Shown: positions 1 to 25,613 of the stretch, piece after piece
Layout: every line of letters begins with the position of its first letter
How positions within the stretch are numbered: the stretch's first letter is position 1
Origin: Dehalococcoidia bacterium
Lineage (GTDB): Bacteria; Chloroflexota; Dehalococcoidia; Lucifugimonadales; QGNO01
DNA length: 64,000 nucleotides
NCBI GenBank assembly: GCA_965261825.1
Contig: CBDHED010000002.1
Span: forward strand, 18,103-82,102
Direction: 5' to 3'
Notes under the pieces: generated by a model
Told to the model about the DNA's origin: nothing
Databases searched by the model: none
Seen by the model: the letters and a program-made list of their open reading frames with translations, nothing else
Made by a program: the position numbers and the translations under genes

Positions 1-645
1 GGCGCTGACCTCCAACCCGATCTGCCTCAGGGACGTTGGCGCGGGAGCAATCCGGTCGTTCTTGACTCCGCCGCTATCTGCAACGTTGGAGTTACAAGCT
101 TCTATGAACCCGGATAGACATCGCTGTAGGCGGGCAAGACCGAGCAGCTTCTCTAGGAACACACCGTGCAGCACAGAACCTGGGTCGTACTTGAATACGG
201 TCTCTGCGAGAGCACCGCGATTGAATTCACCGACTTCCTCCTTCTCCTTCCGGCCTGGCACCCCGGCCTCGGCCCGGAGTTTGTCCTTGAAACCTTCATC
301 TCGCATGATGTAGGGCGAGTTGAGCCTGTGAGCCTCCAGAATGGAATTCGTAGTGTCGCCGCTATCCCACAGAGCCACCGTCACGTACGGCATCCCCTCA
401 AGTGCGGAATGCGGCGACCCGCTTGCCTCATCCCAGCATACGGCTTCTAGTCTGTTCGCCATAGACTGTGCTGATTCGACGAGTACAGTCTCGACAGGAT
501 TGCCGTCTTCGCCTGGGGCCCGGTACACGGCTGCTCCCAGATCCGGGAACCCCGTGGGCTGAAACCGTGTCCCCTGAACGGGCTTAAGTTGAGCCTCCAT
601 AAGAAGCCGGGGCTCGTTGTCAAATTGCTGCCAATCAATCGTCAT
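1..645 (-). CDS. csb1: Cas7u / Csb1 (type I-G, formerly I-U), partial; 3' end lies beyond the window edge
   Basis: Absent from the ORF track because no stop falls in the window. ATG at 645 is in frame to position 1. My translation is MTIDWQQFDNEPRLLMEAQLKPVQGTRFQPTGFPDLGAAVYRAPGEDG..., which carries the RFQPTGFPDLG signature I associate with the Csb1/GSU0053 Cas7 family. It starts 27 nt downstream of csx17 on the same strand. Confidence 0.75.
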   Translation of the reverse strand, partial: MTIDWQQFDNEPRLLMEAQLKPVQGTRFQPTGFPDLGAAVYRAPGEDGNPVETVLVESAQSMANRLEAVCWDEASGSPHSALEGMPYVTVALWDSGDTTNSILEAHRLNSPYIMRDEGFKDKLRAEAGVPGRKEKEEVGEFNRGALAETVFKYDPGSVLHGVFLEKLLGLARLQRCLSGFIEACNSNVADSGGVKNDRIAPAPTSLRQIGLEVSA

Positions 646-672
646 GTCGAATCCTTCCTTGATTTGGAATTT

Positions 673-2895
673 CTACTCCGTTGGCTTGATACGGTCCGGC
701 TTGCGCAGCGCACATTCCGCCAGCGCAAAATAGGACCCCTCGTTCAGCGGAAAGAGCAATGCTGCCGCCAGCCGGCTGCCCTGTTCGGACCCGTCGCGTA
801 TGCCAGGGTCGTTGGACAGAGGCCGCAGTCCCGATGCCTTCAGACGCCGGCAGGCTACCTGATAAGCGTCCCTCACCCTCCCTGTCCGCAGCATTGCCAG
901 CATTGACGGCTCCATTGAGATGTCCACGTCCGCGTTATACTCTTGGCATACGAACTTGCTGGGCAACAACATGAGTTTCATCGCCGCATACGCAGCGGGT
1001 AAATCGAGCGGTGCCGGTTGTGGATAGTCGCTCGGCTCAGAATGATGCCGGTAGCGCACGGCCGACAGCGGCAGGACCAGATCGGCAACCCGTCGGTCTT
1101 CGAGTTCACTGTTCAAGAACGACACGATGTCACTCAGTTGGGCTGAGTACGTCGCCTTAAGGGGCGGGTGGTGATTCTCCAAACCTCGCATCCGCCCTTC
1201 GAGGCAGCGGCGCTCTAGGACGGCAAGCATGTTTGAGAGGGGGTCTCCCGCAGTCCAAACAAACGATGTGCTGTCCTTGTCCCACTCTGTCCGCTTATGC
1301 GAGTGTGTCTTAGCAGGCTCCAGATTTTCCCGAATTGGCCCGACCTTGTACTCTCTCTGCCCCGTTTCGGGAAGGATAGACGCCGTAGCGCGAGCCAGCC
1401 TAAACTCGGCGGACTCGTCATCGGCATGGTGTAGCCATTCCCACGAGAGGTTGTTGAGTGGCTGCACACCCCTGCCATTGTCGCCGTCCTTACTGAGACT
1501 AGACCTCGACAGCCACCGCTCAGCGCGCCCTACTGCAATCAGCACGTCCTGAAGGTCGCGTGGGCCCCCACGCTGGCAGAACTCGATAATTGCGCCCTCG
1601 ACTTGCCTCAAGACTGTGCCGATACCGGTCGGCACCCTGCTGCCGGACGCAGTGCGTCGGAGGCTCTGCATCCACGCGTCTAGGTCAAAAAGAACGTTCG
1701 CGCGTTCCGTAGTACCTTGGTCGCTTTGAACGTAAAACCGCCCCAGCGGAGTGGCTAGATCCGATTGCCCGTTCCGTTCTATAAACCCAAACCGCTGGAA
1801 CTGAGATATCCCTCGCTCAATTCCCAACCCGACCACCGCTCTTGCGAAATCTGTACCACTTGTACCTTGCCCACGACCCATCTGGACACGCCCCTCGGAC
1901 ATAAAATGAACTAACTCTGCCAAGTTGATGGGGCTGTCCCAAAGTGGTGCCCAGAACTCAGCTTTGAACTTAGTTCCGTATTCGGAATCCGCAGAGGTCC
2001 CATACCCGGCGGCGGAGCCGTCAACCGTAAATGGAAACACCGCTTTGGACGATGCCTGTGAAGACAATCTCCGTGCAGCTGCGCCAGCGAACAACAAGGC
2101 CCCTTCCATCATCAAGACGAAATCCCAAGGGTTGATTAAAGAGTCTGCTTTAAAGCCTACTGTAGCATTGGCACCGCCTACACCCCCAGGATGGAACTGG
2201 CCAACCGCGCTCCCAGCAAGCGGCGCATCGCCTTGACTGAAAACCGAGATGTTGACCCACCCCTCGCGGCGTTCATCAGGATCAAATCGTCTTGTAGGCT
2301 TCTTCCCAATTTCGACGCCGGTTAGAGCCAGATTCAGGTTCTTCATGAAGTTGACGCTAAACTCCATGTTGCCGTCGTTAGCGCCAGTTCCAAGCAAAGG
2401 CATGAATCTTCGATCTCCGGTTGTCAGCACATACACTGCGTCAAGCCATGCCAGAGACAAGTCAGGCAGAAGATTACGGCACCCCGCCAGAATCGTTAGC
2501 TTCTCGCTTTCAGACGGCTTGTTGACAATGCCCGCGCCGGTGAGTATCCGTTGGCACAATTCTATAGTCTGCCGGTACTCCTTCAGCCGCATGGAACCTT
2601 CGCCCTGGATCGCGTCAACCGCTTCTTTCGCCGCCGTGCTGCCCTTCGCATAGAACCCGCTTCCACCGTTCCACGGCGACACTATGGGCGTTGGCTTGTA
2701 CTCTTCCATGAAGAACTTCACCAGCGCGTCCTGGTCCAACACCGACCACAACATGAACGTATCGTTCTTCCACCAAGCGCGGGCGTCCTTGTCCTTCTGT
2801 TCTGCCACCAGGCGGAAGATGCCCAAGGCCTTCAGGTAGGCCATCAGCGGCTCTGGCGCGCAACCCGGCAGTTCCCGATGGTGGTCCTGGCTCAC
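673..2895 (-). CDS. csx17: Cas8u2 / Csx17 large subunit (type I-G)
   Basis: ORF 673..2985. The N-terminal ELPGCAPEPLMAYLKALGIFRLVAEQKD matches my memory of the Csx17 N-terminus. I prefer GTG at 2895 (GGGAGG about 7 nt upstream, GTGA overlap with the cas3 stop) over the ATG at 2985, which would overlap cas3 by 94 nt. Confidence 0.8.
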   Translation of the reverse strand: MSQDHHRELPGCAPEPLMAYLKALGIFRLVAEQKDKDARAWWKNDTFMLWSVLDQDALVKFFMEEYKPTPIVSPWNGGSGFYAKGSTAAKEAVDAIQGEGSMRLKEYRQTIELCQRILTGAGIVNKPSESEKLTILAGCRNLLPDLSLAWLDAVYVLTTGDRRFMPLLGTGANDGNMEFSVNFMKNLNLALTGVEIGKKPTRRFDPDERREGWVNISVFSQGDAPLAGSAVGQFHPGGVGGANATVGFKADSLINPWDFVLMMEGALLFAGAAARRLSSQASSKAVFPFTVDGSAAGYGTSADSEYGTKFKAEFWAPLWDSPINLAELVHFMSEGRVQMGRGQGTSGTDFARAVVGLGIERGISQFQRFGFIERNGQSDLATPLGRFYVQSDQGTTERANVLFDLDAWMQSLRRTASGSRVPTGIGTVLRQVEGAIIEFCQRGGPRDLQDVLIAVGRAERWLSRSSLSKDGDNGRGVQPLNNLSWEWLHHADDESAEFRLARATASILPETGQREYKVGPIRENLEPAKTHSHKRTEWDKDSTSFVWTAGDPLSNMLAVLERRCLEGRMRGLENHHPPLKATYSAQLSDIVSFLNSELEDRRVADLVLPLSAVRYRHHSEPSDYPQPAPLDLPAAYAAMKLMLLPSKFVCQEYNADVDISMEPSMLAMLRTGRVRDAYQVACRRLKASGLRPLSNDPGIRDGSEQGSRLAAALLFPLNEGSYFALAECALRKPDRIKPTE

Positions 2896-5315
2896 TTTGC
2901 CGCCTCCCGTTCTTTCGCGCTCGCCCGAAAATCCGCGGCCCGCACTATCGCCTCTAAGTACGCCAGCCTGAACGGGCCCAGCCATTCCAACAGCCCCAAG
3001 CTACGCTCAAGCCAGGAGCGTCGCCCGTTCTCACTCATCCCCATCTGAGCGATCGACATATCGAGCGTCGTTTCTGGGACGCGCAACTCCTTGCCCAAGT
3101 CCACCTCAGGCAGCGTCTCGGGCTCCGATATCGGATACCCCAGCAGCTTGGCAGCATCCGGGTTGCTGTCTCTATTGCTACTTCGCGCCCCCGGTAGCGA
3201 CCTTATGCCAAGCCTGACCAGGCCATGATGCGCTGCCGCTAGGTACGCCGTCAGGTCGCGTAACCTACCGTCGGGTACGTTGGCATGTTCGAGTAGCGCC
3301 AGCGCACTCCCGATCTCGTGTCGGAAGTGCCGGCGGTCCCCGCCGAACTTCCCGTAGCCAGGGCTTTTTGCCATCAGGTCATCTTCGCCAGGCGGGGTGG
3401 AGTCCTCCGGCAAGGATTTCCGCAGCATCTCCTGGAACGCAGAGTGGGCTTTGCCCGTATCGTGATAGAGAGCAGCCATCGCCACAGCTTCACGAATGCC
3501 CGGCTCAGTAAGCCATCTCGACAGCGCATCAAGTATCATACGCGCTTCGGCTTCGACATGGCGGGAGTGGTCGCTCAGAGTTACCCACTTCCTCTGGCAG
3601 GTGTTGGTAGTGTCGGATCCCCAGCCGTCCTCGGGCTGCGGGTCTTCGTCCAATAGAACAGGCTCCACCGGCTCTCTGCTGGAAGGTGCCCACCCGGTCT
3701 CCGGCGAGTACCCGCCCTGATTCGCGTCCAGCATCAACGTCATGCCGGGATGAATATCACGGAGTTGAATCCCCTGCCACTGGCTATCCAGGAAGTCCCA
3801 CCTCCACGCCCTGCGCTCGCTAGCCAAGTAGTCCTTAATGCCTTTGGGGCCGCCCTTTGAGCCGCCGATCGGCACATTCACCAACTCGTCATGGCGCGGC
3901 CGCGGCTCGGTTTCATTCGGGCCGCTCTCCGGAACGTCACGCCAGAACACCGAAACGCCCGTCTCCTCGGCCCCCCGGACATACTGTGACACGTCCAAGT
4001 AGCTTCCTGATAGGTCGGGCGTAGTATCGAACAGGCCCACCACGTCGCGCCTGCGGATGACGGCTAGGTGGTCGGCGTCCTTCATCTTATCGCCCAACTC
4101 TTCGAGAGCGGCAGGCCCAACGGACTTGCCTTCCAGGGACTCCATGATTCCGCGGGCGTGGTCAACGTCCTCCGCGTCATACGGGGCGGTATTCTTGCCC
4201 ACGTCGAACCATATGACGTCGCCACGCTCGCACTTGCCGGTGCGGTTGCACCGCCCGAAACGCTGGACCATCGACGCCCATGGCGCAAGCTCTGTTATCA
4301 GCGTCCGTGCCGAGATGTCCACCCCTGCCTCTATCGCCTGCGTCGCCACGACAATCCTGCCTTGACCATCGAGGGGTGCGGAGACGCCTTTCTGCTTGTC
4401 CTTGCGGTCCTTCTCTCGGAAGCGCGAGTGCACCAGCACCTTTTCGGTGTCCAGCGAGACCTTCTTCAAGGCTTCATAAACACCCTGCGCCCGCTCCACG
4501 GTATTCACTATCACCAATGTCAGCGTCCCGTGCTCGTGTTTTTCCGCAACGATACCGGCTATCTCTTTGGGCTTCGTGACGTCCACCGAGGCCTTGGCCG
4601 CGACCTTCTTGGCGTTGTGTCGCTCAGCGAGGCGGGCGTCCGCCAGATCGTCGTCGCCAAGTTTCACGATCTGATTCTCCGAGGGGGCAGGATGGTCGAT
4701 AGTCTCCAGCCAGTTGGGACGGACGGTCGCCGACATCCACATGCTTTGAGCGGGGCCGAAGGTCTCGAACTTGCCTCGCAGCCCGTCCATCTGCGTTGAC
4801 GTGGGCAGGCCGTTCGCCATGAGTTGCACCTCGTCCATCACCCAGAGGCAGTCGTTGTTCAGCAGGCCATACTCGACCGGCCACATGTTGTAGCCCATGC
4901 CGTAGCCGCGGTTCAGGGCGCGGGACAGCAGCATGTCCTGCGTACCGACGATGATGAAGGGCTTTTCAGGGTGTAGATACCACTGAGCGCGAGGCTCCCC
5001 TCCCATGAGTGTGACGAGGCCAACGTCGTCCGCTCTGCCCAGCTTTGTGAGCCAATCTCCAACCCGGGTCACAGTCTGCTCCACCAGCGTCCGCATTGGA
5101 AGGCAGTACGCCAGCCTTCGCGGAGTGGTGTCACGCATGGTAGGTTCCGGATGCTCGAAGCGCCTGTACATCCACCCCAGCACGGCCGCCTCCGTCTTCC
5201 CGGCACCTGTCGGAACCCGCACCAGACTGGGCAACTCCGGTCTCTCAGCAAGCTCAGCCTGGTACGGATATGGAGAAAACCCGGTTGCCTTATTGAAGAA
5301 ATCAGCGTAGGTCAT
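2892..5315 (-). CDS. cas3: Cas3 helicase with C-terminal HD nuclease domain
   Basis: Walker A PTGAGKTE and DEAH-like VMDEVQ are followed by a C-terminal HD signature (LYHDTGK, FRHEIGS, AAHHG). Helicase-then-HD order is typical of subtype I-U/I-G. Confidence 0.9.
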   Translation of the reverse strand: MTYADFFNKATGFSPYPYQAELAERPELPSLVRVPTGAGKTEAAVLGWMYRRFEHPEPTMRDTTPRRLAYCLPMRTLVEQTVTRVGDWLTKLGRADDVGLVTLMGGEPRAQWYLHPEKPFIIVGTQDMLLSRALNRGYGMGYNMWPVEYGLLNNDCLWVMDEVQLMANGLPTSTQMDGLRGKFETFGPAQSMWMSATVRPNWLETIDHPAPSENQIVKLGDDDLADARLAERHNAKKVAAKASVDVTKPKEIAGIVAEKHEHGTLTLVIVNTVERAQGVYEALKKVSLDTEKVLVHSRFREKDRKDKQKGVSAPLDGQGRIVVATQAIEAGVDISARTLITELAPWASMVQRFGRCNRTGKCERGDVIWFDVGKNTAPYDAEDVDHARGIMESLEGKSVGPAALEELGDKMKDADHLAVIRRRDVVGLFDTTPDLSGSYLDVSQYVRGAEETGVSVFWRDVPESGPNETEPRPRHDELVNVPIGGSKGGPKGIKDYLASERRAWRWDFLDSQWQGIQLRDIHPGMTLMLDANQGGYSPETGWAPSSREPVEPVLLDEDPQPEDGWGSDTTNTCQRKWVTLSDHSRHVEAEARMILDALSRWLTEPGIREAVAMAALYHDTGKAHSAFQEMLRKSLPEDSTPPGEDDLMAKSPGYGKFGGDRRHFRHEIGSALALLEHANVPDGRLRDLTAYLAAAHHGLVRLGIRSLPGARSSNRDSNPDAAKLLGYPISEPETLPEVDLGKELRVPETTLDMSIAQMGMSENGRRSWLERSLGLLEWLGPFRLAYLEAIVRAADFRASAKEREAAK

Positions 5316-5486
5316 CTACATCCTTTCATCATCTGCCTGGCTGCCAACCGCTGGGCTAACAGTGCTCACTGGACACGCCCTTGTATACCAGTCGCTTTTG
5401 TATTCGCACGCCAAGTTCAGCGTATCCATAATCTTCTGATCCTGGATGCCGGTTTCTCCCTGTATTATATTTAAGCTATAAGGTTC

Positions 5487-8400
5487 GTTTCAATGGGGCC
5501 ATGACCTTTCGGTCATGGATACACACTGCCATTATAGCACATTCGCTCGTGGTACCTTGCTTCAATGGGGCCATGACCTTTCGGTCATGGATACACTGAA
5601 GGCCGGGGAGCAGCGCATGACGATTACGGTGCTTCAATGGGGCCATGACCTTTCGGTCATGGATACAAGGAGATATGAAAATCACGGTTGTAAACCGTTG
5701 GCGTAGCTTCAACGGCCGTGTTCCTTCTCGGCTTCAACTGGGGCGGCATGTTCCTTCTCGCTTCAATGGGGCCATGACCTTTCGGTCATGGATATGAAAA
5801 TCACGGTTGTAAACAGTTGGCGTAGCTTCAATGGGGCCATGACCTTTCGGTCATGGATACTTCAGGACGCCAAGATGACGTGCTTCAATGGGGCCATGAC
5901 CTTTCGGTCATGGATACGCCCGGGATCTCTGTGGGCTTCAATGGGGCCATGACCTTTCGGTCATGGATACTATGCAGTGCCGAGCCGGGACCCTGGCGCT
6001 TCAATGGGGCCATGACCTTTCGGTCATGGATACATGGCGAGTGTCCGACTCACGACACGGGCCTCGTCCGGCTTCAATGGGGCCATGACCTTTCGGTCAT
6101 GGATACTCGTCTATGCCAGTGCTTCAATGGGGCCATGACCTTTCGGTCATGGATACCCGAACAAAAGCTGCTTCAATGGGGCCATGACCTTTCGGTCATG
6201 GATACCGTGCCCGCTTCAATGGGGCCAGTGTCCGACCGGACGCACACGGTGCGTCGCCCGGCTTCAATGGGGCCATGACCTTTCGGTCATGGATACAAGG
6301 ATTTACTGTCGGCCCGGAAGTCTGCTTCAATGGGGCCATGACCTTTCGGTCATGGATACCTACGAGGCGCGACTCAACACGGGGGGCTCGTCCTGCTTCA
6401 ATGGGGCCATGACCTTTCGGTCATGGATACTGCCCATTCTGCTTCAATGGGGCCATGACCTTTCGGTCATGGATACCATCAGTTAGGACGCCACGCCGCT
6501 TCAATGGGGCCATGACCTTTCGGTCATGGATACTCTGTAACTGAGCCACCCAACACGAAGAGCGTTACGGGCTTCAATGGGGCCATGACCTTTCGGTCAT
6601 CAACGCGGTCAAAGGAGGACGCGGCTGCGAGAACGGCTTCAATGGGGCCATGACCTTTCGGTCATGGATACAGAGGGCTTCTCCGCCCGCCGACCGAGCT
6701 TCAATGGGGCCATGACCTTTCGGTCATGGATACGGCAACTCAGAGCTTGCCCTGCCCCTGCTTCAATGGGGCCATGACCTTTCGGTCATGGATACACCGG
6801 AAGGGCTACGCGTGTTTGCTGGATGGGGCCATGACCCCATGGATACTAGGAAGCGTACGATCCTACCCCGCTTCAATGGGGCCATGACCTTTCGGTCATG
6901 GATACGACGGTCCCAGCAGGTCTCCGCCTCTACTCCGCTTCAATGGGGCCATGACCTTTCGGTCATGGATACTTCACAAGGCGGATCGGAAGCGCAGACG
7001 CCGGCTTCAATGGGGCCATGACCTTTCGGTCATGGATACCGGGGGAGCCCATACGCGCCGGTGGGCAAGGGACTCCCGGCTTCAATGGGGCCATGACCTT
7101 TCGGTCATGGATACGAAGCGTGGGCCAACCCATCATGGGGCCGCTTTCGGTCATGGCCAGAAAGGAGCAGAGCGTATGCTGAACTAGGCTTCAATGGGGC
7201 CATGACCTTTCGGTCATGGATACGCTCGAACGTTCGCGGCGCGTCAAGCTTCAATCCATGACCTTTCGGTCGATACGCCGACCTCCGGGCCGACGCCGCC
7301 AGGGGGATGCTTCAATGGGGCCATGACCTTTCGGTCATGGATACGGCTGGCGTCCACTAGGGCCTTCCGCACAGTTCCGGCTTCAATGGGGCCATGACCT
7401 TTCGGTCATGGATACGGGCAAGATGGCCACACGCGGAAGGGTGACGTGAAGGTGCTTCAATGGGGCCATGACCTTTCGGTCATGGATACCAGTATGGGGT
7501 GGTCGACCATGGCCAGGCGCTCGTGCTTCAATGGGGCCATGACCTTTCGGTCATGGATACCGGAACAGGGTCAAGGCCCTGGCGACGTCGCCGGCGCTTC
7601 AATGGGGCCATGACCTTTCGGTCATGGATACTGGAGGTGCCGCCCGCCGCCTTGCGGGTCGCTTCAATGGGGCCATGACCTTTCGGTCATGGATACGCTG
7701 GGAATGATGAGTCCGGTATGGGCGCGTTTTCCCATGGACGGGAGAATTACATACAATCCGCCGGCTGGCCGCTGCTTCAATGGGGCCATGACCTTTCGGT
7801 CATGGATACCTGGGAGAGCTGCTAGCGGTGCTTCGCCGACAACGGGGACCTAGAGGGACGTGCTTCAATGGGGCCATGACCTTTCGGTCATGGATACCTG
7901 GGGAATACTACGATCTTCAAGGGGTTGGTACGAGCGTGGGTGCTTCAATGGGGCCATGACCTTTCGGTCATGGATACCAGGCTGGGGGCCGACGATCCCT
8001 CCGGCCAGCGATGTGTGCTTCAATGGGGCCATGACCTTTCGGTCATGGATACCGGAACAGGGTCAAGGCCCTGGCGACGGACCTGGCAGCTTCCCACGCT
8101 TCAATGGGGCCATGACCTTTCGGTCATGGATACTGGACAACCCCACCACGCCTTGCAGGGTGCCGAGGACGCCCCAGGGCTTCAATGGGGCCATGACCTT
8201 TCGGTCATGGATACCAGCTGAGCGGTGCGCCGACAACCTCTGCAACAATCACGGGCTTCAATGGGGCCATGACCTTTCGGTCATGGATACTGGGGAGTTA
8301 TCTTGCGGCGCCCAACGACCTTTCGCAAGGGGTTGGTTCCTAGGGGAGCGCTTCAATGGGGCCATGACCTTTCGGTCATGGATACCAGGAACTCGACATG

Positions 8401-9618
8401 CCGACGATCCCTCCGGCATACCGACGATATTGCAAACCATCGTTTGGCGCTTCAATGGGGCCATGACCTTTCGGTCATGGATACAGCGGACCGCCAGGGT
8501 GCCGAGAGCCTGCTTCAATGGGGCCATGACCTTTCGGTCATGGATACAGGGTGGCCGACTACACCTCTGCAACAATGAGACCTGGGCTTCAATGGGGCCA
8601 TGACCTTTCGGTCATGGATACATCCCCAACAATGGTTTGACATGACGAACGAGCCTACCTTTTGGAGCTTCAATGGGGCCATGACCTTTCGGTCATGGAT
8701 ACTCCTACATGGTGGACCACCAAGGCAACTGGTGCGGGCTTCAATGGGGCCATGACCTTTCGGTCATGGATACTTGTCAAAGTTCGGCTCGATCCGGTAA
8801 CGACGCGCCCGCTTCAATGGGGCCATGACCTTTCGGTCATGGATACGGAACAATACTGGCCGGAGATCGGCGGGAGCCCGCGCTTCAATGGGGCCATGAC
8901 CTTTCGGTCATGGATACGATACTCGTTACCATCTAGGGTTCTCGTACGTCCTGAATTTGAGCTTCAATGGGGCCATGACCTTTCGGTCATGGATACAGGA
9001 GTTCCCCTCCCGATGTTGTCCTTGTAACCTTTGCTTCAATGGGGCCATGACCTTTCGGTCATGGATACACCTTTTCTGCAACCCGCTGCTGCTTCAATGG
9101 GGCCATGACCTTTCGGTCATGGATACGCCTTTCCGCCCACTGCCGTGAGCATACAGAACGACATGCCGCTTCAATGGGGCCATGACCTTTCGGTCATGGA
9201 TACTTCGTACTGCGCATCGCCTCCTCGAACTTGGCCCCTGCGCTTCAATGGGGCCATGACCTTTCGGTCATGGATACGCGTTCGGCGTTCCCTTGTTCTC
9301 TGTGCGCTTCAATGGGGCCATGACCTTTCGGTCATGGATACATGCTGTATGACGAGGAACCCTACGCTTCAATGGGGCCATGACCTTTCGGTCATGGATA
9401 CCGCCCACCTAGTAGCGAGAAGGGTGAAGCTTATACCCGCTTCAATGGGGCCATGACCTTTCGGTCATGGATACTAGCCCCCATAATGATTGCTGCCGTC
9501 TGATTCAGTGGCTTCAATGGGGCCATGACCTTTCGGTCATGGATACCACCTACCAATAGGTGTCCGGCGGCTCTACTTCGTAGCTTCAATGGGGCCATGA
9601 CCTTTCGGTCATGGATAC
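5487..9618 (-). CRISPR. CRISPR array, about 62 repeat units (about 55 intact), 36-nt repeat
   Basis: Repeat as written on the + strand: GCTTCAATGGGGCCATGACCTTTCGGTCATGGATAC. Its reverse complement GTATCCATGACCGAAAGGTCATGGCCCCATTGAAGC has an 8-bp stem (CCATGACC/GGTCATGG) with a GAAA loop and ends in ATTGAAGC. Mutated or truncated units cluster at the low-coordinate end (first unit 5487 has C2->T; half repeats at 5706 and 5731). Together these place the array on the - strand with the leader at the high-coordinate end next to cas2. Confidence 0.97.
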
Positions 9619-9842
9619 CGTATCTAGAGAACAGTTTTCGACATAGAGAGCCGCCCATATGATGGAATTGCACGAGTTTTGCCGGATTGCGCCACTTATT
9701 AGTTGGCCGGAACCTCCCATCTCCATGTTTTACGCTCAAATCATGCGAGCGCTCACTAGTACGACGAATACCACCGGAGCGCTCGCAATGGAGAGCCAAG
9801 CGCGTACTCTGCCCTTGCGTACATCATACTAGGCCATGCCCC
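9619..9842 (-). promoter_or_regulatory. Putative CRISPR leader
   Basis: A 224-nt non-coding, comparatively AT-rich segment between the last perfect repeat (ends 9618) and the cas2 stop (9843). It lies on the side opposite the degenerate repeats. Confidence 0.6.
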
Positions 9843-10133
9843 TCAAACCACCAAGACCTCCACAGGGCTCGGCTTGAACTGACGGCCCAAGGTCTTCACT
9901 ACCTCCGCGCCACGGCCATCGGCAGGGCCTATGTCTATGACCAGCACTCTGTCCTCTTTGAGGTTGATGATTTCGGTCAGGGCTTCCTCCATGATGACTC
10001 GTTCTTTCGTTGAGAGGTCACAAACGAAGACCGAGTATTGCAGCGGGTCGCCAAACCCATTCATTTTCTTGAAGGTCCTGCGCAGCCGCTTGGCATCGCT
10101 CACGTCGTAGGCCACAATATATCGGTTGCGCAT
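9843..10133 (-). CDS. cas2: Cas2
   Basis: 96 aa. MRNRYIVAYDVSD...YSVFVCDL is the classic Cas2 N-terminal beta-strand/Asp motif. The gene starts 4 nt after the cas4/cas1 stop. Confidence 0.9.
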   Translation of the reverse strand: MRNRYIVAYDVSDAKRLRRTFKKMNGFGDPLQYSVFVCDLSTKERVIMEEALTEIINLKEDRVLVIDIGPADGRGAEVVKTLGRQFKPSPVEVLVV

Positions 10134-10136
10134 GGC

Positions 10137-11834
10137 TCACCTCGTAGTAAAGGCGGGGTATTTCTTCAACTCGCCCAGCAGAAAGCGCCCCAACAGACGC
10201 GCCTGAACCTCCATGACCCGGCGGTAGCTTATGGAGTAGTTGAACAGAGGGTGCGTTATCAGGGTGTCCAGTCTGCGCTCGAATGCTCTGATAACGGCCT
10301 TGCGTCCGCCCTCAGTCAGGGCCACGGCCCCAGACCTGTGAATGAAGTCCCCCTCCTTCAACTCCGCGTTGTTGAAGAGGGTCAGCGTAGCGGAATCTGC
10401 AACTATTGAGCGGAACTCCTCGGCGAGATCAAGGGCCAGTGCGGGCCGTCCATACTTGGGCTGATGGTAAAAGCCCATGTACGGATCGAATCCCACCGCC
10501 ACCGCCGATATCAGGGCTTGTTTGATCAACATCGAGTAGAGGAAGGACAACACCGCGTTCACCGGGTCCCTGGGCGGGCGGCGGTTGCGCGTGCGGAAGT
10601 CGAATGTGGATCGATCAGATTTAATCAGAGAAGCAAAGTTGGCAAAGTAGACGCGGGCAGCGGCCCCTTCTATGCCGAGCAGTGTTTGGAGCGAATCCGC
10701 AGACATGGCGCTTTTGCAAAGCCGTTCAATCTCCTGTAGAGCAGCCTGGGGCGAGTCGGGATGGTTCCTGCGAAGCATGACTCTGCTGTTTCGTAGTTTG
10801 GCGACGACGATGTCCCTTGCTATGGAGAGGGACGTGAGGCTGTCGCCGGCCGCGCGGAACTGGGCTATCCGCAGTTCGACGTTCTTGTGGCCCATACTCC
10901 AAGTTATGCCCTTCAGCCAACCTCCGTAGGTGAAGTGGCAGACGGGTATTGCCCGGTCCAAGAGCTCGCGCGTGGCCTGTGAGGTGACCTGAGTATTGCC
11001 AAAGATGGAGAGGCTGGACACGTCAAGGAGCCTGGCGCGGGCGACGACCTCGCGTTTAACGCTGACGGTGAGATTGTCGCCGGATTTTCCCACGACCCCG
11101 CCCTGGGTGGTCACGTACATGGGCAGAGCATCATCCCGCGCTGGGGCCATGCGACGAACGTCATCCGGCTTTACCACATGCCGGCTGCCTTTGAGGAAGG
11201 TAACCTCGTCAGGGAGGCAAATGCCAACGAGGGAGCACCGGGGACACTTTGGGCTGTCCTCAAGCGGAGGCGGGATTTTGCCGCCAACGGCCATCGCACG
11301 GGCGGCGTCCAGCATCTCCAGCGTCAGCGCCACCAGCGCATCGTCGAAGGGAACCCGGACGCGGCGCTTTGAAGCAACGAAGTAGAGGATGCCCTCGTCG
11401 CATTGGTACCCGCTGGCGCGCAGGAGAAGACCCTGAACGCACAGTTGCACCCGCTCGGGATCGTAGGCGTTGCCAGGGACGTCGGGTACGGTTCCGCGCT
11501 TGTAGTCTATGGGCGTGGCAGCCGGTCCCTGGGCCTCGACCAAGTCGATGCGCGCAATGGCGCCCAGAGTCTCATCCGACAGGAGGACGGAGCGAGCATG
11601 GATCTTCTCATGTTCGTCATCCTCGTCGGATTCCGGTTCCCTGAGATCGCCGGATGGCTGATCGACGCGCCGGTGCTGAAATCGGCCGTCCAGCGTATCC
11701 TCGCTGTGGGCAAACTCGCCCTGCACCCACTCCATGTAGCTCAGTCTGGGACAGTAAACGAACTCGTTGAGCATCCTGGCAGGTATAAGCTCAGGAACTC
11801 CAACCCCCCGGCTCCCATCGTCTCGGTCATTCAA
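10137..11834 (-). CDS. cas4-cas1: Cas4-Cas1 fusion protein
   Basis: 565 aa. The N-terminal Cas4-like part has FVYCPRLSYMEW and the cysteine cluster CPRCSLVGIC. The C-terminal ~330 aa is Cas1-like. The fusion is characteristic of I-U/I-G. The TTG at 11834 is uncertain; the next ATG is 19 codons downstream. Confidence 0.9.
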   Translation of the reverse strand: MNDRDDGSRGVGVPELIPARMLNEFVYCPRLSYMEWVQGEFAHSEDTLDGRFQHRRVDQPSGDLREPESDEDDEHEKIHARSVLLSDETLGAIARIDLVEAQGPAATPIDYKRGTVPDVPGNAYDPERVQLCVQGLLLRASGYQCDEGILYFVASKRRVRVPFDDALVALTLEMLDAARAMAVGGKIPPPLEDSPKCPRCSLVGICLPDEVTFLKGSRHVVKPDDVRRMAPARDDALPMYVTTQGGVVGKSGDNLTVSVKREVVARARLLDVSSLSIFGNTQVTSQATRELLDRAIPVCHFTYGGWLKGITWSMGHKNVELRIAQFRAAGDSLTSLSIARDIVVAKLRNSRVMLRRNHPDSPQAALQEIERLCKSAMSADSLQTLLGIEGAAARVYFANFASLIKSDRSTFDFRTRNRRPPRDPVNAVLSFLYSMLIKQALISAVAVGFDPYMGFYHQPKYGRPALALDLAEEFRSIVADSATLTLFNNAELKEGDFIHRSGAVALTEGGRKAVIRAFERRLDTLITHPLFNYSISYRRVMEVQARLLGRFLLGELKKYPAFTTR

Positions 11835-14710
11835 GTCGGCAACTCCGGCTTCTTGGAACCGTGGATGGACGGGTCACTCGCCAGCAGTGTTCTCAGCCTA
11901 GCTACGGCGGCCACGGCGGCTTCGCCGAGACCGAGCAGGTCTCGAACGACGCGCTCATCCAGCTCAATTCGCACGGGATCTACGGCGCACTGATGGAAGG
12001 ACTGAAACTTACGGTCCCTGAAGTCTTGCCAGATTGCTAGGGCCTCGTCGAGTTGCCAGGCTTTCAGCTTTCGGACATCAAGCGTTGTGAGGTTCTCCAA
12101 CATTCCCTTGTTGCCTTGTCCTCTACCTTCCTGGGCACTGTTGGAATGATCAGCGTGGAGCAGCATTCCGAGCGTGGAGTTACACCAGAGGGCCAAAGCT
12201 ATCTCTAGCCGGGACCTGATGACAGGATCATCCTCGTGTATGGACAATGTGTGCCACGCTCTCACCCCCAATGTCTTTATACTGGTATATGTTGTCATTA
12301 TCCGTTGTGCGTTGTATCTGACGTCAACGGTGATGTGAAGCGTGCCAGCTTGCGACCATATGGGCATGTGGTCAATGCCAGGCTTAGGGACAAGCCTGGC
12401 ATTCGGCTCTGAGGACATGCTCTGATGAACTGATGAGTCCAGGCTCCATATGGCGGGGAACTGAGCGTCTCCGTTCCAGCCGTGGTATCCATGAAACACC
12501 CCAAGCGAGCCTCGAATTCTCCGGTGCTGCGGTCCCACGTTACAGACTTCATCCATAACGGCAACCGGAACGTGGCCTGCAACCTGAGCGCCGTCCTCCA
12601 TCCAAAGTTCACCGCGCTCAAGGGCGGATGCGACCTGGCCCGTCACGACTCGCCTCCACCGGGCGGCCGTCCAAGGTCCCTCCCCTACAGGGCCGTCCAC
12701 GACCTCACCCCATTGTTCGCCGCCAACCATCAGAGGACTGCCTCCAATCGGCGGCCCGTCCGACCGCAACACGGGTGATGAAGCCGCCGCGTTCACGGCC
12801 CGGACGAGAGCCAGCGCATCCGTTTCCTGGTAGGGCGCACGCCATAGGTTGACGAATCTCCCACGTCTGGGCGCATGTTCACCCTCCTGGAGTCGGCGGG
12901 CCACGAGCAGCGCCTCTGCGATGGCGGTGTCGTATGACATGGAGAGGAGCGCAGGGTCGTGGGACGACACCACGAACTCAATCTCGTACCTGGAGGCGAG
13001 CATTTGGCGGACCTCTCGCCAAGACTCGCCGAACACTGCCGTCACCGGCAGCACCAGTGCGATGCGCCCTCCGGGGCTGACCATTCGGTCCGCTAGGACC
13101 GTGAAGGACGAAGCATGTCCGGCCATCTGATTGGCCGACGTGCCCTTCAGCAGAGCAGATGTCCGCTTCGCTATGGCCTGCTGGGATTCCATGTCGCCCT
13201 CCGGTAGGGAGAACACACGGGACAGAGCTTCCTCTTTCCCGCCATCGCTGCCCCGCCGGGTGAACGGGGGATTGCTGATGACCAAGTTGGCCCTGGGAAG
13301 CTGTACGATGCTTCCAGCACCGGTGGTCGCTCCTATCTGCTCTTCGGTGGCGGAGAAGAAGGACTGGACTTCAGATGATTCCAACCAGTCCAGCGAGCCA
13401 AGATAGACAGCCCGGGATTCCTTCCCTTGAAGGTTCTCCTGCGTCTCCGTACCCAATCTGAGGGTGTGAAGCTGCATCTGCTCGAACCTCACCGATGGGG
13501 ACATTGCCGCAAGGGTTGCAGCTGTCAGGTGAATGGCAGCCTGCACCACGTCAGCCCCGACAATGACCTTCTCGACCAGGGCCTGGTGGAGAGACGAGTC
13601 ATCGGAATCGTCGGAAGCCACAGCTGCGTGGTTCTGGACTATCTGCCGGTAGGCGGCCATGAGGAGAGTCCCTGTCCCACACGCCGGGTCAACCACACGC
13701 AAGCTGGAAATTCCCTCTGAGTCGCTCCAAGCAACGTGGGACCATCTGGCTGGGTGCAGAGCTAGCCCCGCAAGGAGAGTGGATGCCGGGATGCTCGTAT
13801 AGAAGGCCGCCAGCAGCTTCCGCTCCGAGATCAGCCGGTTGAATATCCGCCCGGCCAGGTCGTGGCGTCCCACTGCTCCCATGCCCAGCAACGCAGCGGC
13901 AGTCCTGGCGCACTCGCCGAGCACCGACGCAGCTTCAACTTCGGAAAGCTCCTGAACCACGTCCCGCGCCATGCTGAATATGGGATAGTAGTCTATGCTC
14001 AGGATGTGCTCCCATACCTGCAACAGCGTCATGCGCGAGAAGCGCCCGTCTCGCATCGCCGCGCTCACCGGCTGGAACGCCACCTCGTTGCTGGCCAGCC
14101 GGTCCTGGAAGACCATGGCGTTGATGACGACCAGCGCGGCCATGTTGGCCGCCTCCTCGCTGGGATCGGCGTCAAAAATCTTCGAGACCCTCCCCAACGT
14201 CCCGGGGGAGGAGTAGAGCCGGGAACCGGCTCGCCTCGCTCCCTCATCGAGGACGTCAACTGCTTCGTCGAGGTCGCCAGCTGGCGGGGTTGTCCGGTGC
14301 ACCGTATCCCCAAGCTCTATTGCAGTCCCACTGAGCTTGGGGCCGGAAGTGCCGTCTATGCGCCATTCCTGCCACACCAGCGTCGCGCCTGCCATGCGCT
14401 CGTACAGGTGTTGCTGGCTCGTCGAGCGCAGCCTTCCCGGAACCGTGACGGCGAAGACGTTCTGAACCTTCTGACCGTCTATCTCCATACCAAGGCGGGA
14501 GAGGGCATCTGCTTCCACGGTCAAGGCAGGTTCAAGCTCGGTCTCGAGGATCACAGGACCTTCGGACAGACGAACGATGATGTCCGGACGCCTGCCGCCG
14601 TGCAGCGTCTCAGCAACTGCCGACAGGCCGCACCGCTCCCGGAGGAACCGGGCCAGCGCATCGTTGATGATGCTTTCGTGGCTGCGGTCTTTGCCATTGA
14701 CGGTTGTCAT
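11831..14710 (-). CDS. Restriction-modification-like N6-adenine DNA methyltransferase (type IIG/IIL-like single polypeptide)
   Basis: 959 aa. SAM motif I is VVDPACGTGTLL, catalytic motif IV is LVISNPPFTRRG, and an FYTS motif lies upstream. The N-terminal RRPDIIV...GPVILETELEP resembles a PD-(D/E)xK core but lacks the canonical Lys. A long C-terminal region is consistent with a target-recognition domain. Its stop overlaps the cas4/cas1 start region. Confidence 0.7.
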   Translation of the reverse strand: MTTVNGKDRSHESIINDALARFLRERCGLSAVAETLHGGRRPDIIVRLSEGPVILETELEPALTVEADALSRLGMEIDGQKVQNVFAVTVPGRLRSTSQQHLYERMAGATLVWQEWRIDGTSGPKLSGTAIELGDTVHRTTPPAGDLDEAVDVLDEGARRAGSRLYSSPGTLGRVSKIFDADPSEEAANMAALVVINAMVFQDRLASNEVAFQPVSAAMRDGRFSRMTLLQVWEHILSIDYYPIFSMARDVVQELSEVEAASVLGECARTAAALLGMGAVGRHDLAGRIFNRLISERKLLAAFYTSIPASTLLAGLALHPARWSHVAWSDSEGISSLRVVDPACGTGTLLMAAYRQIVQNHAAVASDDSDDSSLHQALVEKVIVGADVVQAAIHLTAATLAAMSPSVRFEQMQLHTLRLGTETQENLQGKESRAVYLGSLDWLESSEVQSFFSATEEQIGATTGAGSIVQLPRANLVISNPPFTRRGSDGGKEEALSRVFSLPEGDMESQQAIAKRTSALLKGTSANQMAGHASSFTVLADRMVSPGGRIALVLPVTAVFGESWREVRQMLASRYEIEFVVSSHDPALLSMSYDTAIAEALLVARRLQEGEHAPRRGRFVNLWRAPYQETDALALVRAVNAAASSPVLRSDGPPIGGSPLMVGGEQWGEVVDGPVGEGPWTAARWRRVVTGQVASALERGELWMEDGAQVAGHVPVAVMDEVCNVGPQHRRIRGSLGVFHGYHGWNGDAQFPAIWSLDSSVHQSMSSEPNARLVPKPGIDHMPIWSQAGTLHITVDVRYNAQRIMTTYTSIKTLGVRAWHTLSIHEDDPVIRSRLEIALALWCNSTLGMLLHADHSNSAQEGRGQGNKGMLENLTTLDVRKLKAWQLDEALAIWQDFRDRKFQSFHQCAVDPVRIELDERVVRDLLGLGEAAVAAVARLRTLLASDPSIHGSKKPELPT

Positions 14711-14886: not shown

Positions 14887-15183
14887 CTACGCCGTGGGCT
14901 GCGGCTGGTAGCGTTCGACCCGTATTCGGTCTTCACCCTTACGCGCTTGTGCTAGGTCGTAGGAAGTCTGCCGGCGCAGCCAGAAATCGGCACTGGACCA
15001 TCCAGCCTTCTCAAGGCGAATGGCCATGTCGGGCGAGATCGCGGCGTGGCAGTTCAATACCCGAGAAAGGGTGTGGCGGGCAACGCCCAGAACCTCCGCC
15101 GCCTCGGTTACACTTAGCCCAAGGGGTTCCAGGCAGTTTTCCCTGATGCCCCGGCCAGGATGGGGTGGATTCTTCATAGCCAT
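14887..15183 (-). CDS. higA: HigA-family antitoxin (XRE HTH)
   Basis: [37 protein letters not shown]...[26 protein letters not shown] matches the HigA antidote pattern. It lies directly downstream of higB. Confidence 0.8.
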
Positions 15184-15198
15184 CTCTCTTCCCTCTCG

Positions 15199-15477
15199 CT
15201 AGTGATAGTCGGCTAGATCGACGTCATACACGTCACCACCTTCAAATCGGAAGGTGATCCGCCAGTTACCCGAAATCGAAATGCTCCACGATCCTCTCCG
15301 GTCACCCCTGAGGGGATGCAGTCTGTACCCCGGCAAATCAAGTTCACTCGGCTTGCTGGCAACATCCAGGTCCGCCAGGGCGAGAGTAATCCGATCCAGT
15401 TGGTCGGCGCCTATCCTGCTGGGGTCGCCTCGCTCATAGAGCCGCCTCAGTCTTCGATGGCGAAACGACCTAATCAT
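15199..15477 (-). CDS. higB: HigB-family toxin (plasmid maintenance system killer, RelE/ParE fold)
   Basis: MIRSFRHRRLRRLYERGD...GYRLHPLRGDRRGSWSISISGNWRITFRFEGGDVYDVDLADYH is the typical HigB pattern. I use the internal ATG at 15477 (92 aa) rather than the 141-aa ORF-track start. Confidence 0.8.
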   Translation of the reverse strand: MIRSFRHRRLRRLYERGDPSRIGADQLDRITLALADLDVASKPSELDLPGYRLHPLRGDRRGSWSISISGNWRITFRFEGGDVYDVDLADYH

Positions 15478-15977
15478 AGAAGGATTATACCGTGTTCCGG
15501 TACACCTATCAATAACTTCACTGTCATTCCCAACTCTTCCACACCACTTTGTGTATCCTTCAGTGCCCCAGGCACCGCTCCAGTGCCTCGTTGCGACGCG
15601 GCTGACGTGCCGCCACCGAGCCAACCCTGAACCCTAACCCCTGCTTCAACGCCTCCCGCACACGCCAGGAACAGCCTCCCGTCTTCATGCACGAGGCTAC
15701 GGCCTTGAGATATATGCCGAGACCGTCGCCGCATCCCTGTTTCCCTTTCTCCCACACTAGTTCGTGCAGCATCGTCATGAGCCTCAGGTGGTGAACGTCC
15801 TCAACGCCTCCGCTCTCTCCGATGACCGGCTTCATCGTCTGCCACACCTTCCCGCCCATGAAAGGAACGAAACGAAAAGGGATATACAGGTTTTCTGCCC
15901 ACCACCTTCCCTATGCGCGTGGAAGGAACCCAGACCCCGAATTGCTTGCTCCGATGGTAGCAGTGCCGGGCCGGAGC

Positions 15978-22995: not shown

Positions 22996-23124
22996 TGTCA
23001 AGGGCGGCGAGAAGGTGTACCGCTGCGGCGGAGCAAGTGTGTCCCACTGGCATGATGAGAAGGACCCAAATGGGGAGCCGGGCGGGGTTAGGTCAGGAGC
23101 AGGGGTCCCCAGGTCTGGAGTGAG

Positions 23125-23907
23125 TCAGGAGTCGTCCTGCTCGTCCGAGATCGGGGAGGCGGCGTTTCCCCGGCTGTGCCGGAGACGGTAGCTGTCGCCG
23201 TTCATCTCCAGGATGTGGACGTGATGGGTGAGCCGGTCCAGCAGGGCTCCGGTCAGGCGTTCCGAGCCGAAGACCTCGGTCCACTCGTCGAAGGGCAGGT
23301 TGGTGGTGACCATGACGGAGCCCCGCTCGTAGCGCTGGCTGAAGACCTCGAAGAGGAGTTCTGCGCCGGTGGGGGACAGGGGCACGAAGCCCTGTTCGTC
23401 GATGATCAGCAGGCTGAGGCGGGACAGCTGCCGCTGCAGGTTGAGCAGCCGTTTCTCGTCCCGGGCCTCCATCAGCTCGTGGACCAGGGCGGCGGCCGTG
23501 GTGAAGCCCACGGACATTCCCCGCTGGCAGGCGGCGAGGCCAAGGCCCAGGGCGACGTGGGTCTTGCCGGTGCCGCTGTTGCCGACGGCGATGACGTTCT
23601 CCCGGCGCTGGATGTATTCGCAGCGGGCCAACTCCATCACCAGTTGTTTGTTCACCGAGGGGATGGCCGTAAAGTCGAAGGTGTCCAGGCTCTTGACGGC
23701 GGGGAAGCGGGCGGCGCGGATCCGGCGCTGCACCATGCGCTGGTGACGGTCGATGAGTTCCAGCTCGGCCAGGCGCAGCAGGTACTGGGGGTGGTCCACG
23801 CCCTCGGCGGCGCACTGGGCAGCCATCTTCCCGTACTCCCTCAGGAAGCTGGGCAGCTTCAGTTCCTTCAGGTGGTGTTCCAGGAGCAGGGTGGACCGCT
23901 GGTTCAC
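23125..23907 (-). CDS. istB: IS21 helper ATPase IstB
   Basis: Walker A GNSGTGKTH, Walker B LLIIDE, and ...LLDRLTHHVHILEMNGDSYR. GTG at 23907 follows GGGAGGG and overlaps the istA stop (GTGA). In the ORF track this is the tail of an artificial 759-aa fusion. Confidence 0.85.
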   Translation of the reverse strand: MNQRSTLLLEHHLKELKLPSFLREYGKMAAQCAAEGVDHPQYLLRLAELELIDRHQRMVQRRIRAARFPAVKSLDTFDFTAIPSVNKQLVMELARCEYIQRRENVIAVGNSGTGKTHVALGLGLAACQRGMSVGFTTAAALVHELMEARDEKRLLNLQRQLSRLSLLIIDEQGFVPLSPTGAELLFEVFSQRYERGSVMVTTNLPFDEWTEVFGSERLTGALLDRLTHHVHILEMNGDSYRLRHSRGNAASPISDEQDDS

Positions 23908-25404: not shown

Positions 25405-25613
25405 CCTTCACACCTTCCATCGAGTTTCCTCCAACTCTATGGAAGGCGGCGGGTGGTACGGTTTTGCAGCGCCACTCTCGAACGCTCACCCCCGCCTCGC
25501 CGGTACAGTATTACTCCGCCCTTTACAACTCTCCCGAATCTGATAGCCTTCGTGTGACGACGCCAGCTCTCGAGTATTGGTGGGGACATCAGGCAGACCA
25601 CACAGCGAAGTAT

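What the first reader, a model, noticed from the sequence alone, without database searches (positions are those of the whole stretch)
5487..9618. CRISPR array with extreme spacer-length heterogeneity (7 to 77 bp) and many internally damaged repeats
**What the sequence shows**
- I parsed every unit by hand. Spacer lengths from trailer to leader are approximately: 36, 36, 39, (two half repeats), 29, 21, 17, 27, 37, 14, 13, 7 (then a 15-nt partial repeat) 33, 27, 35, 10, 21, 37, 35, 26, 26, 22, 23, 31, 31, 39, 17, 30, 24, 32, 35, 38, 35, 35, 29, 77, 52, 44, 39, 45, 45, 40, 59, 63, 27, 38, 45, 35, 37, 35, 43, 36, 22, 41, 38, 28, 24, 37, 36, 36.
- Unambiguous short cases flanked by perfect repeats are 6107-6120 (14 bp), 6157-6169 (13 bp), 6431-6440 (10 bp), 5918-5934 (17 bp) and 9069-9090 (22 bp).
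- The long 'spacers' (7697-7773, 7810-7861, 8291-8349, 8386-8448) contain eroded repeat remnants, for example TTTTCCCATGGAC and GACCTTTCGCAAGGGG.
- Repeats with internal deletions occur mid-array: 6571 lacks GGATAC, and 6818, 7132 and 7248 are also damaged.

**Why it matters**
- Cas4-Cas1 systems normally give tightly sized spacers (mid-30s), and spacers under about 20 nt cannot guide interference.
- Three explanations are possible: a relaxed or defective ruler, post-acquisition slippage at the strong 8-bp repeat hairpin, or indel/collapse errors in assembly.
- The istA G5 frameshift shows that such errors are plausible in this contig.
Basis: seen in the sequence. Interest (0 to 1): 0.6.

Follow-up and report, generated by a model that had tools for sequence, protein, structure and literature searches.

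The report
Garbled assembly of a CRISPR array
The wildly uneven spacer lengths are really in this sequence, but an independent assembly of the same locus shows clean 35-40-base versions of the same spacers, so the irregularity is almost certainly an assembly error and not new CRISPR biology.

Summary
Window 5487-9618 holds 55 intact copies of a 36-nt repeat, 53 of them perfect. The stretches between them are 10 to 102 nt long, and several contain damaged repeats.

The locus is an ordinary type I-G CRISPR-Cas system: Cas4g/Cas1g, Cas2, Cas3g, Cas8g1/Csx17 and Csb1.

The irregularity is not biological, for these reasons:
- An independent metagenome contig (ERZ26694896 ctg88936, named 29.79x) carries the same locus. 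Outside one variable patch its flanks are about 99.85% identical to the window.
- That contig's array has 32 perfect repeats and 31 spacers, all 35-40 nt.
- About 20 of the window's first 30 spacers are indel-riddled versions of those clean spacers.
- One block of five clean spacers appears twice in the window, both copies garbled.
- One window spacer is a chimera of two clean ones. One 37-nt clean spacer is an exact subsequence of a 52-nt window 'spacer'.
- Matched spacers differ at 26% of positions. The repeats between them differ at none, and the flanks at about 0.15%.
- Every related array examined is regular, including a second array in the same genome.

The likely cause is consensus building over mixed strain arrays, which is inferred. 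No clean counterpart was found for the trailer half (5487-7308).

The parts
5487..9618 (-). CRISPR array as assembled. It has 55 intact 36-nt repeats. On the transcribed strand the repeat reads GTATCCATGACCGAAAGGTCATGGCCCCATTGAAGC, with an 8-bp stem, a GAAA loop and an ATTGAAGC 3' end. The stretches between repeats are 10-102 nt. The spacer content is judged corrupted.
   Evidence: parse. (comparison with the clean array in L017).
9619..9842 (-). Leader, lying between cas2 and the first repeat. It is conserved in the second locus (C4) and in contigs L016 and L017.
9843..10133 (-). cas2 (96 aa).
   Evidence: NCBIfam TIGR01573, 32.4 bits against a cut-off of 24.5. PF09827 on the identical product in L016 and L017.
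10137..11834 (-). cas4g/cas1g fusion (565 aa), intact.
   Evidence: Pfam Cas_Cas4 plus Cas_Cas1. NF049935, 776 bits against a cut-off of 560. 97% identical to the C4 copy.
2892..5315 (-). cas3g (807 aa): helicase at the N-terminus and HD domain at the C-terminus. Intact.
   Evidence: TIGR02621, 789 bits against a cut-off of 400.
673..2895 (-). cas8g1/csx17 (740 aa from the GTG at 2895).
   Evidence: TIGR04113, 656 bits against a cut-off of 150. The start was set by analogy with L018.
1..645 (-). First 215 codons of csb1/cas7g. The full gene is 335 aa and runs off the left end of the window.
   Evidence: PF09617. TIGR02570. Full protein read from contig C3.
8053..8448 (-). First garbled copy of the block that occurs once in L017 as spacers 14-18. 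Window spacers are 63, 59, 40, 45 and 45 nt against clean ones of 39, 39, 37, 37 and 35 nt. The spacer at 8215-8254 is a chimera of L017 spacers 12 and 16.
7561..8016 (-). Second copy of the same block. Spacers of 39, 44 and 52 nt correspond to L017 spacers 14-16. A 77-nt and a 29-nt unit follow, and then 7561-7595, which is identical to L017 spacer 18.
   Evidence: L017 spacer 16 is an exact subsequence of 7810-7861.
6034..6394 (-). Three mutually garbled versions of one spacer (6034-6070, 6226-6260 and 6360-6394). Short units of 14, 13, 7 and 27 nt and a 15-nt partial repeat lie between them.
5667..5824 (-). Duplicated spacer (39 nt and 29 nt versions, with one mismatch). The two copies are separated by two indel-laden half-repeats.

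Best explanation
The locus is a standard type I-G CRISPR-Cas system, and its true array has spacers of about 35-40 nt. The 4.1-kb array sequence in this contig is not the array of any one cell. It is a corrupted consensus or assembly path through a hypervariable array in a mixed population.

**Shown**
- At least three array versions of this locus exist in one metagenome sample.
- A higher-coverage contig holds clean, regular versions of the window's odd spacers.
- The window holds garbled duplicates and chimeras of those spacers.
- The damage is confined to the spacers.

**Inferred**
- Reads from different strains were recruited by the shared perfect repeats and aligned in different registers.
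- Where reads disagreed, the consensus dropped letters, giving spacers of 10-29 nt and repeats with internal deletions.
- Elsewhere it interleaved letters from two sequences, giving 'spacers' of 44-77 nt that contain the true spacer as a subsequence.
- The assembly path also went through one block twice.
For: **Independent contig of the same locus**
- Contig L017 (ENA ERZ26694896 ctg88936_29.79x_l) encodes the identical Cas2 and has the same gene order.
- Over 10.5 kb of flank it differs from the window at 167 positions. 153 of these lie in one patch of about 0.9 kb in the methyltransferase gene.
- The remaining roughly 9.5 kb has 11 substitutions and one 3-nt indel.

**L017's array is clean**
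- It has 32 of 32 perfect repeats and 31 spacers of 35-40 nt.

**Correspondence between the two arrays**
- The spacer-by-spacer score matrix gives a clear diagonal. Window spacers 1-3, 6-7, 10, 13-18, 20-21 and 27-29 match L017 spacers 1-3, 5-6, 8, 10-15, 17-18 and 18-20.
- Window spacers 22-24 match L017 spacers 14-16 a second time.
- These matches score 15-36. The maximum with reversed sequences as a control is 14.

**Size and location of the damage**
- In 19 matched pairs the window has 28 mismatches, 127 extra letters and 31 missing letters over 703 nt, which is 26%.
- All intervening repeats are identical.

**Chimeras and interleaving**
- Window 8215-8254 is the 5' part of L017 spacer 12 joined to the 3' part of spacer 16.
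- L017 spacer 16 (37 nt) is an exact subsequence of window 7810-7861 (52 nt). The longest common subsequence is 37, against a maximum of 33 in 2000 shuffles.

**Internal duplications**
- All 8 same-strand spacer pairs scoring 13 or more lie 4-6 units apart.
- L017 has a single internal pair reaching 13, against nine in the window.

**Related arrays are regular**
- C4 in the same genome: 36, 37, 40, 37 and 38 nt.
- L016: 14 spacers of 35-41 nt.
- L018 and L019: 34-39 nt.

**The population is mixed**
- L016, L017 and the window share an identical Cas2 but have different arrays.

**The adaptation genes are intact**
- Published I-U/I-G adaptation gives mainly 36-bp spacers (PMC6547450).
Against: - The evidence is therefore contig against contig, not read-level.
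- L017 ends inside the array. The trailer half of the window array (5487-7308) holds the most extreme units of 10-17 nt and has no clean counterpart on record. The verdict for that half rests on internal garbled duplicates and on analogy.
- Six window spacers (9342-9365, 9278-9305, 9069-9090, 8997-9032, 8847-8881 and 8774-8810) have no L017 counterpart, and L017 spacers 4, 7 and 9 have none in the window. The window strain may therefore truly differ from L017 in part.
- The rest of the assembly is accurate even in tandem repeats. A 6340-aa frame stays open through 19 kb of repeats and the LRR genes are in frame. The error must be specific to the array and cannot be general noise.
- The exact software step that caused the error is inferred.
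Confidence: 0.9

Rival explanations
1. The array is real but decaying. After normal acquisition, slippage at the hairpin repeat, microhomology deletions and unequal recombination shortened, fused and duplicated units in this strain.
For: - One junction looks like a deletion through GATA microhomology (5667/5796).
- Block duplications in arrays can arise by unequal recombination.
- The locus sits among mobile-element genes.
Against: - Matched spacers differ from L017 at 26% of positions, mostly by scattered 1-5-nt insertions.
- The 36-nt repeats between them have no change, and 9.5 kb of flank has 0.15% difference with a single 3-nt indel.
- Random deletions should hit repeats as often as spacers.
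- Duplicated blocks should start out identical, yet they differ from each other by many indels.
- The cas genes are intact.
Confidence: 0.06
2. The Cas4/Cas1-Cas2 integrase of this locus has a relaxed or defective ruler and inserts spacers of 10-77 nt.
For: - Perfect repeats flanking odd-length spacers are what acquisition-level variation would give.
- The Cas4/Cas1 of this locus differs from the C4 copy at 17 of 578 aligned positions.
Against: - The odd spacers are garbled versions of regular spacers in L017, with the same ends. They are not independent acquisitions.
- L017 encodes a Cas4/Cas1 of the same length and an identical Cas2, yet has 35-40-nt spacers.
- The C4 array, with the same repeat and a similar leader, is regular.
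- A ruler defect explains neither the damaged repeats nor the duplicated blocks.
- In G. sulfurreducens I-U, spacer length stayed at 36 bp even with the Cas4 domain inactivated (PMC6547450).
Confidence: 0.02
3. It is an artefact, but one caused by plain low coverage or raw-read noise in this contig and not by mixing of strain arrays.
For: - Low-coverage contigs of related loci show errors. L018 (named 5x) has two imperfect repeats and a split cas4/cas1.
- A single-base frame break occurs in istA at about 24560.
Against: - The 10.5 kb next to the array is clean against L017, with no single-base indels.
- 53 of 55 repeats are perfect.
- Long repetitive genes elsewhere are in frame.
- Uniform noise would not spare repeats and flanks.
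Confidence: 0.05

Closest known systems
Type I-G (formerly I-U) CRISPR-Cas, as in Geobacter sulfurreducens (Cas3g, Cas8g1/Csx17, Csb1/Cas7g, Csb2, Cas4g/Cas1g fusion, Cas2)
   Same: - All five proteins tested score above the NCBIfam type I-G cut-offs.
- Cas3 has its HD domain at the C-terminus.
- The repeat is 36 nt, has a hairpin and ends in ATTGAAGC.
- The clean related arrays have spacers of 35-41 nt with a mode of 36. This matches the 36-bp peak reported for G. sulfurreducens (PMC6547450).
   Different: - The array lies between the adaptation genes and the interference genes, and not at the end of the operon.
- A type IIG-like methyltransferase gene abuts cas4/cas1.
- Csb2 lies outside the window and was not tested by family model.
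Chimeric or blended CRISPR arrays produced by assembly or consensus of mixed populations
   Same: - Repeats are perfect while spacers are garbled.
- Spacers are chimeras or interleavings of spacers that exist cleanly in another contig of the same sample.
- There are spurious block duplications.
   Different: - Here the damage is dominated by scattered insertions and deletions, with lengths from 10 to 77 nt, and is not a base-by-base blend of equal-length spacers.
- The software step responsible is inferred and was not observed.

Membership tests
Type I-G CRISPR-Cas | Cas4-Cas1 fusion protein | tested here: met
   Pfam Cas_Cas4 (residues 21-207) plus Cas_Cas1 (239-519) in one 565-aa product. 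NF049935 cas4g_cas1g scores 776 bits against a cut-off of 560.
Type I-G CRISPR-Cas | Cas3 with the helicase at the N-terminus and the HD nuclease at the C-terminus (Cas3g) | tested here: met
   DEAD at residues 31-201, Helicase_C at 252-360 and Cas3_HD at 574-699. TIGR02621 scores 789 bits against a cut-off of 400.
Type I-G CRISPR-Cas | Cas8g1/Csx17 large subunit | tested here: met
   TIGR04113 scores 656 bits against a cut-off of 150. Pfam gave no hit.
Type I-G CRISPR-Cas | Csb1/Cas7g (GSU0053 family) | tested here: met
   PF09617, E-value 1.6e-37. TIGR02570 scores 83 bits against a cut-off of 38.
Type I-G CRISPR-Cas | Csb2 (Cas5/Cas6-like fusion that processes the crRNA) | not tested
   A 495-aa product of the C4 locus matches C3 just left of the window at 90% identity. 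It was not scanned against family models.
Type I-G CRISPR-Cas | Spacers of tightly defined length, about 36 bp | tested here: inconclusive
   The window's letters do not meet this (10-77 nt). The feature is met in the clean copy of the same array (L017, 35-40 nt) and in the C4, L016, L018 and L019 arrays. The failure is attributed to assembly.
Assembly or consensus artefact | An independent assembly of the same locus lacks the anomaly and holds clean versions of the same units | tested here: met
   L017.
Assembly or consensus artefact | No single read supports the anomalous units | not testable with these tools

The most novel reading that the evidence does not exclude
The window's array is real. 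In that case one strain carries an array whose spacers, but not its repeats or flanks, have undergone massive indel mutagenesis and local block duplication. That would imply a spacer-targeted diversification or decay process not known for CRISPR arrays.
Probability: 0.03. Interest if true: 0.75.

Novelty: not a real feature. Interest (0 to 1): 0.08.

Why it matters
- If the heterogeneity were real, it would challenge the ruler model of Cas1-Cas2 integration in Cas4-fusion systems. It is not real, so nothing changes for CRISPR biology.
- The practical lesson concerns data quality. In metagenome-assembled genomes a CRISPR array can be badly corrupted while the surrounding genes are near-perfect, because strains share the repeats and differ in the spacers.
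- Spacers taken from such arrays for host-virus linking, spacer-length statistics or PAM inference would be wrong.
- Useful warning signs are perfect repeats with odd-length spacers, partial repeats, and collinear look-alike spacers a few units apart.

Tried and rejected
- **Same repeat elsewhere.** It was not found in 60 relatives at up to 3 mismatches. There was no exact match in metagenome contigs or genome contigs.
- **Targets of the spacers.**
  - No match longer than 20 nt in the organism's own genome.
  - No match in the phage or plasmid collections.
  - The 21-mer core of the 7561/8053 spacer pair is absent from viral contigs.
  - The 18-mer shared by 7978 and 8386 gave 7 viral hits whose flanks do not match, so these are chance hits.
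- **General poor assembly quality.** Rejected as the cause. A 6340-aa frame stays open through 19 kb of tandem repeats in C5, and the LRR genes in C1-C4 are in frame. Only two CRISPR arrays exist in the genome.
- **Clean counterpart for the trailer half.**
  - The window's Cas3 and Cas7g have no other record.
  - The nearest Cas3 (P0002, 98% identical) led to contigs of the other, C4-like locus type with a variant repeat.
  - A small neighbouring gene led back to the same two contigs.
- **Haplotig idea.** I considered whether C3 is an alternate-strain copy of the end of C4. The two align over about 20 kb at only 81-90% identity, with Cas8g 60% identical. They are therefore distinct loci and not two versions of one.
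Full report
**1. The observation**

The repeat GCTTCAATGGGGCCATGACCTTTCGGTCATGGATAC (36 nt) occurs 55 times between 5487 and 9618. 53 copies are perfect.

The stretches between repeats measure 10 to 102 nt. The long stretches of 73 nt or more contain damaged repeats near 5706-5759, 6571, 6818, 7132 and 7248, and the 55-nt stretch holds a partial repeat at 6213.

**2. What the locus is**

The order on the minus strand is as follows:

| Feature | Window coordinates |
|---|---|
| Type IIG-like methyltransferase gene | 14710-11831 |
| cas4/cas1 fusion | 11834-10137 |
| cas2 | 10133-9843 |
| Leader | 9842-9619 |
| Array | 9618-5487 |
| cas3 | 5315-2892 |
| cas8g/csx17 | 2895-673 |
| csb1/cas7g | 645 onward, running off the window |

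- NCBIfam places all five tested proteins in type I-G above the curated cut-offs.
- Read on the minus strand, the repeat is GTATCCATGACCGAAAGGTCATGGCCCCATTGAAGC. It has an 8-bp stem and a GAAA loop.
- Its ATTGAAGC end resembles the ATTGAAAC-type 3' end recalled for related type I repeats. This recollection is the basis for taking the minus strand as transcribed, with the leader next to cas2.

**3. The genome**

- The window is part of a 108-kb contig (C3) of a 2.51-Mb, five-contig genome.
- Only one other CRISPR array exists in the genome. It lies on C4 at 586090-586493, has the identical repeat, and its five spacers are 36, 37, 40, 37 and 38 nt.
- That second locus is a diverged paralogue:

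| Protein | Identity between the C3 and C4 loci |
|---|---|
| Cas3 | 94.5% |
| Cas4/Cas1 | 97% |
| Cas2 | 97% |
| Cas8g | 60% |

- All cas genes of the window locus are in frame.
- A generally relaxed ruler would be expected to affect both arrays, and it does not.

**4. Internal structure of the window array**

- An all-against-all comparison of spacers shows same-strand partial similarities but no comparable opposite-strand ones.
- All eight best same-strand pairs lie 4-6 units apart. Examples are 7561/8053, 7810/8215, 7810/8291, 7898/8291, 7978/8386, 8134/8485, 8215/8548 and 6034/6360.
- The array therefore contains collinear, heavily garbled block duplications whose repeats are nevertheless perfect.
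- At 5706-5759 two half-repeats sit in tandem. They differ from each other by several indels within 29 nt.
- The repeat at 7248 carries two separate small deletions.
- Neutral decay cannot easily produce this pattern next to 53 flawless repeats.

**5. The decisive comparison**

An exact look-up of the Cas2 protein found two other contigs from one ENA metagenome assembly, ERZ26694896.

*L017 (ctg88936_29.79x_l, 16.4 kb)*
- It has the same gene order as the window.
- Over 10.5 kb of flank it differs from the window at 167 positions. 153 of these lie in one patch of about 0.9 kb in the methyltransferase gene.
- The other roughly 9.5 kb shows 11 substitutions and one 3-nt indel.
- Its array runs to the contig end. 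It has 32 perfect repeats and 31 spacers of 35-40 nt.

*Correspondence with the window*
- The first two spacers are identical to the window's leader-proximal spacers.
- The third differs by one inserted letter in the window.
- The score matrix shows a clean diagonal, with matches scoring 15-36 against a control maximum of 14.
- L017 spacers 14-18 occur once. The window has them twice, at 8448-8053 and at 8016-7561.
- The window's odd lengths correspond to regular ones as follows:

| Window spacer length (nt) | L017 spacer length (nt) |
|---|---|
| 63 | 39 |
| 59 | 39 |
| 52 | 37 |
| 45 | 38 |
| 45 | 37 |
| 45 | 35 |
| 44 | 39 |
| 43 | 39 |
| 41 | 38 |
| 27 | 36 |

*Size and nature of the differences*
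- Across 19 matched pairs the window has 28 mismatches, 127 extra letters and 31 missing letters over 703 nt. The repeats between them do not differ at all.
- Window 8215-8254 joins the front of L017 spacer 12 to the back of spacer 16.
- L017 spacer 16 is an exact subsequence of the 52-nt unit at 7810-7861. Spacers 14 and 15 are subsequences of the 63-nt and 59-nt units apart from one letter each, far beyond shuffled controls.
- Some inserted letters resemble the repeat loop.

**6. Other related arrays**

- L016 (ctg102961_10.14x_l, same sample, identical Cas2) has a different set of 14 spacers of 35-41 nt. An insertion sequence sits inside one repeat.
- Two low-coverage contigs from other samples, found through the nearest Cas3 (98% identical), carry a one-letter variant of the repeat and spacers of 34-39 nt.
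- The sample therefore holds at least three array versions behind identical Cas2 genes. Every array except the window's is regular.

**7. Mechanism**

*Shown*
- The damage is confined to spacers.
- It is dominated by scattered insertions and deletions.
- It includes chimeras, interleavings and a duplicated block.
- It occurs in a population with several array versions.

*Inferred*
- During consensus building or polishing, reads from different strains were anchored by the shared repeats in different registers.
- Disagreement led to dropped letters (short spacers, repeats with internal gaps) or to merged letters (long spacers).
- The contig path passed one block twice.

General sequencing noise is not the cause. 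The flanks are clean, and long tandem-repeat genes elsewhere are in frame, including a 6340-aa frame through 19 kb of repeats.

**8. Limits**

- L017 ends in the array, so the trailer half (5487-7308), which has the shortest units, has no clean counterpart. It shows the same pathology internally: three garbled copies of one spacer at 6034, 6226 and 6360, and a duplicated spacer at 5667/5796.
- Six window spacers lack an L017 counterpart, and three L017 spacers lack a window counterpart. This could reflect a truly different strain array or a path that weaves between array versions.
- No protospacers were found anywhere.

**9. Comparison with what is known**

- Type I-U/I-G Cas4/1-Cas2 of G. sulfurreducens inserts mainly 36-bp spacers. 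This does not change when the Cas4 domain is inactivated (PMC6547450). It fits the clean arrays here.
I did not check that case.

**10. Verdict**

- The biological readings (relaxed ruler, in vivo slippage) are not supported.
- The assembly reading is strongly supported, with confidence of about 0.9.
- The feature is not real. The underlying locus is an ordinary type I-G system.
- Interest is low, apart from the caution it gives for using spacers from metagenome-assembled genomes.

Noticed in passing
window 1-11834, and contig C4 578422-588747 of the same genome: The genome carries two type I-G loci with the identical repeat. Cas3, Cas4/Cas1 and Cas2 are 94-97% identical between them, but the large subunit Cas8g/Csx17 is only 60% identical. 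This suggests diversification of the target-recognition subunit.
   Followed up: partly
window about 11830-12745 (L017 7386-8300): Between the window and contig L017, 153 of 167 flank differences fall in one patch of about 0.9 kb at the 3' part of the methyltransferase gene next to cas4/cas1. The rest is about 99.85% identical. This looks like a swapped specificity domain. The C4 copy of this gene has an in-frame stop.
   Followed up: partly
L016 10625-12735: In a third version of the locus, an insertion sequence with a DDE transposase (DUF772/DDE_Tnp_1) sits inside a CRISPR repeat and splits the array.
   Followed up: no
window about 24560 (minus strand), inside the IS21 at about 22996-25527: The istA reading frame changes once, from frame 0 to frame 1, near 24560, while istB is intact. 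It could be a real pseudogene or a single-base error.
   Followed up: partly
contig C5 850-19869 of the same genome (outside the window): A single 6340-aa open frame runs through about 19 kb of tandem repeats with a period of about 367 nt and about 93% identity between units. The start of C4 is the reverse complement of the start of C5. This is a giant repetitive protein gene lying at a contig break.
   Followed up: no
L018 6630-8326: In the contig named 5x from another sample, cas4/cas1 is split into products of 387 and 189 aa, and two of eight repeats carry substitutions. This is probably low-coverage error.
   Followed up: no
window 14887-15624: Relative to a 174-aa product of the C4 locus, the C3 homologue is split across two frames near 15186-15252. 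L017 calls the same 98-aa HTH gene there, so the split is shared by both contigs.
   Followed up: no
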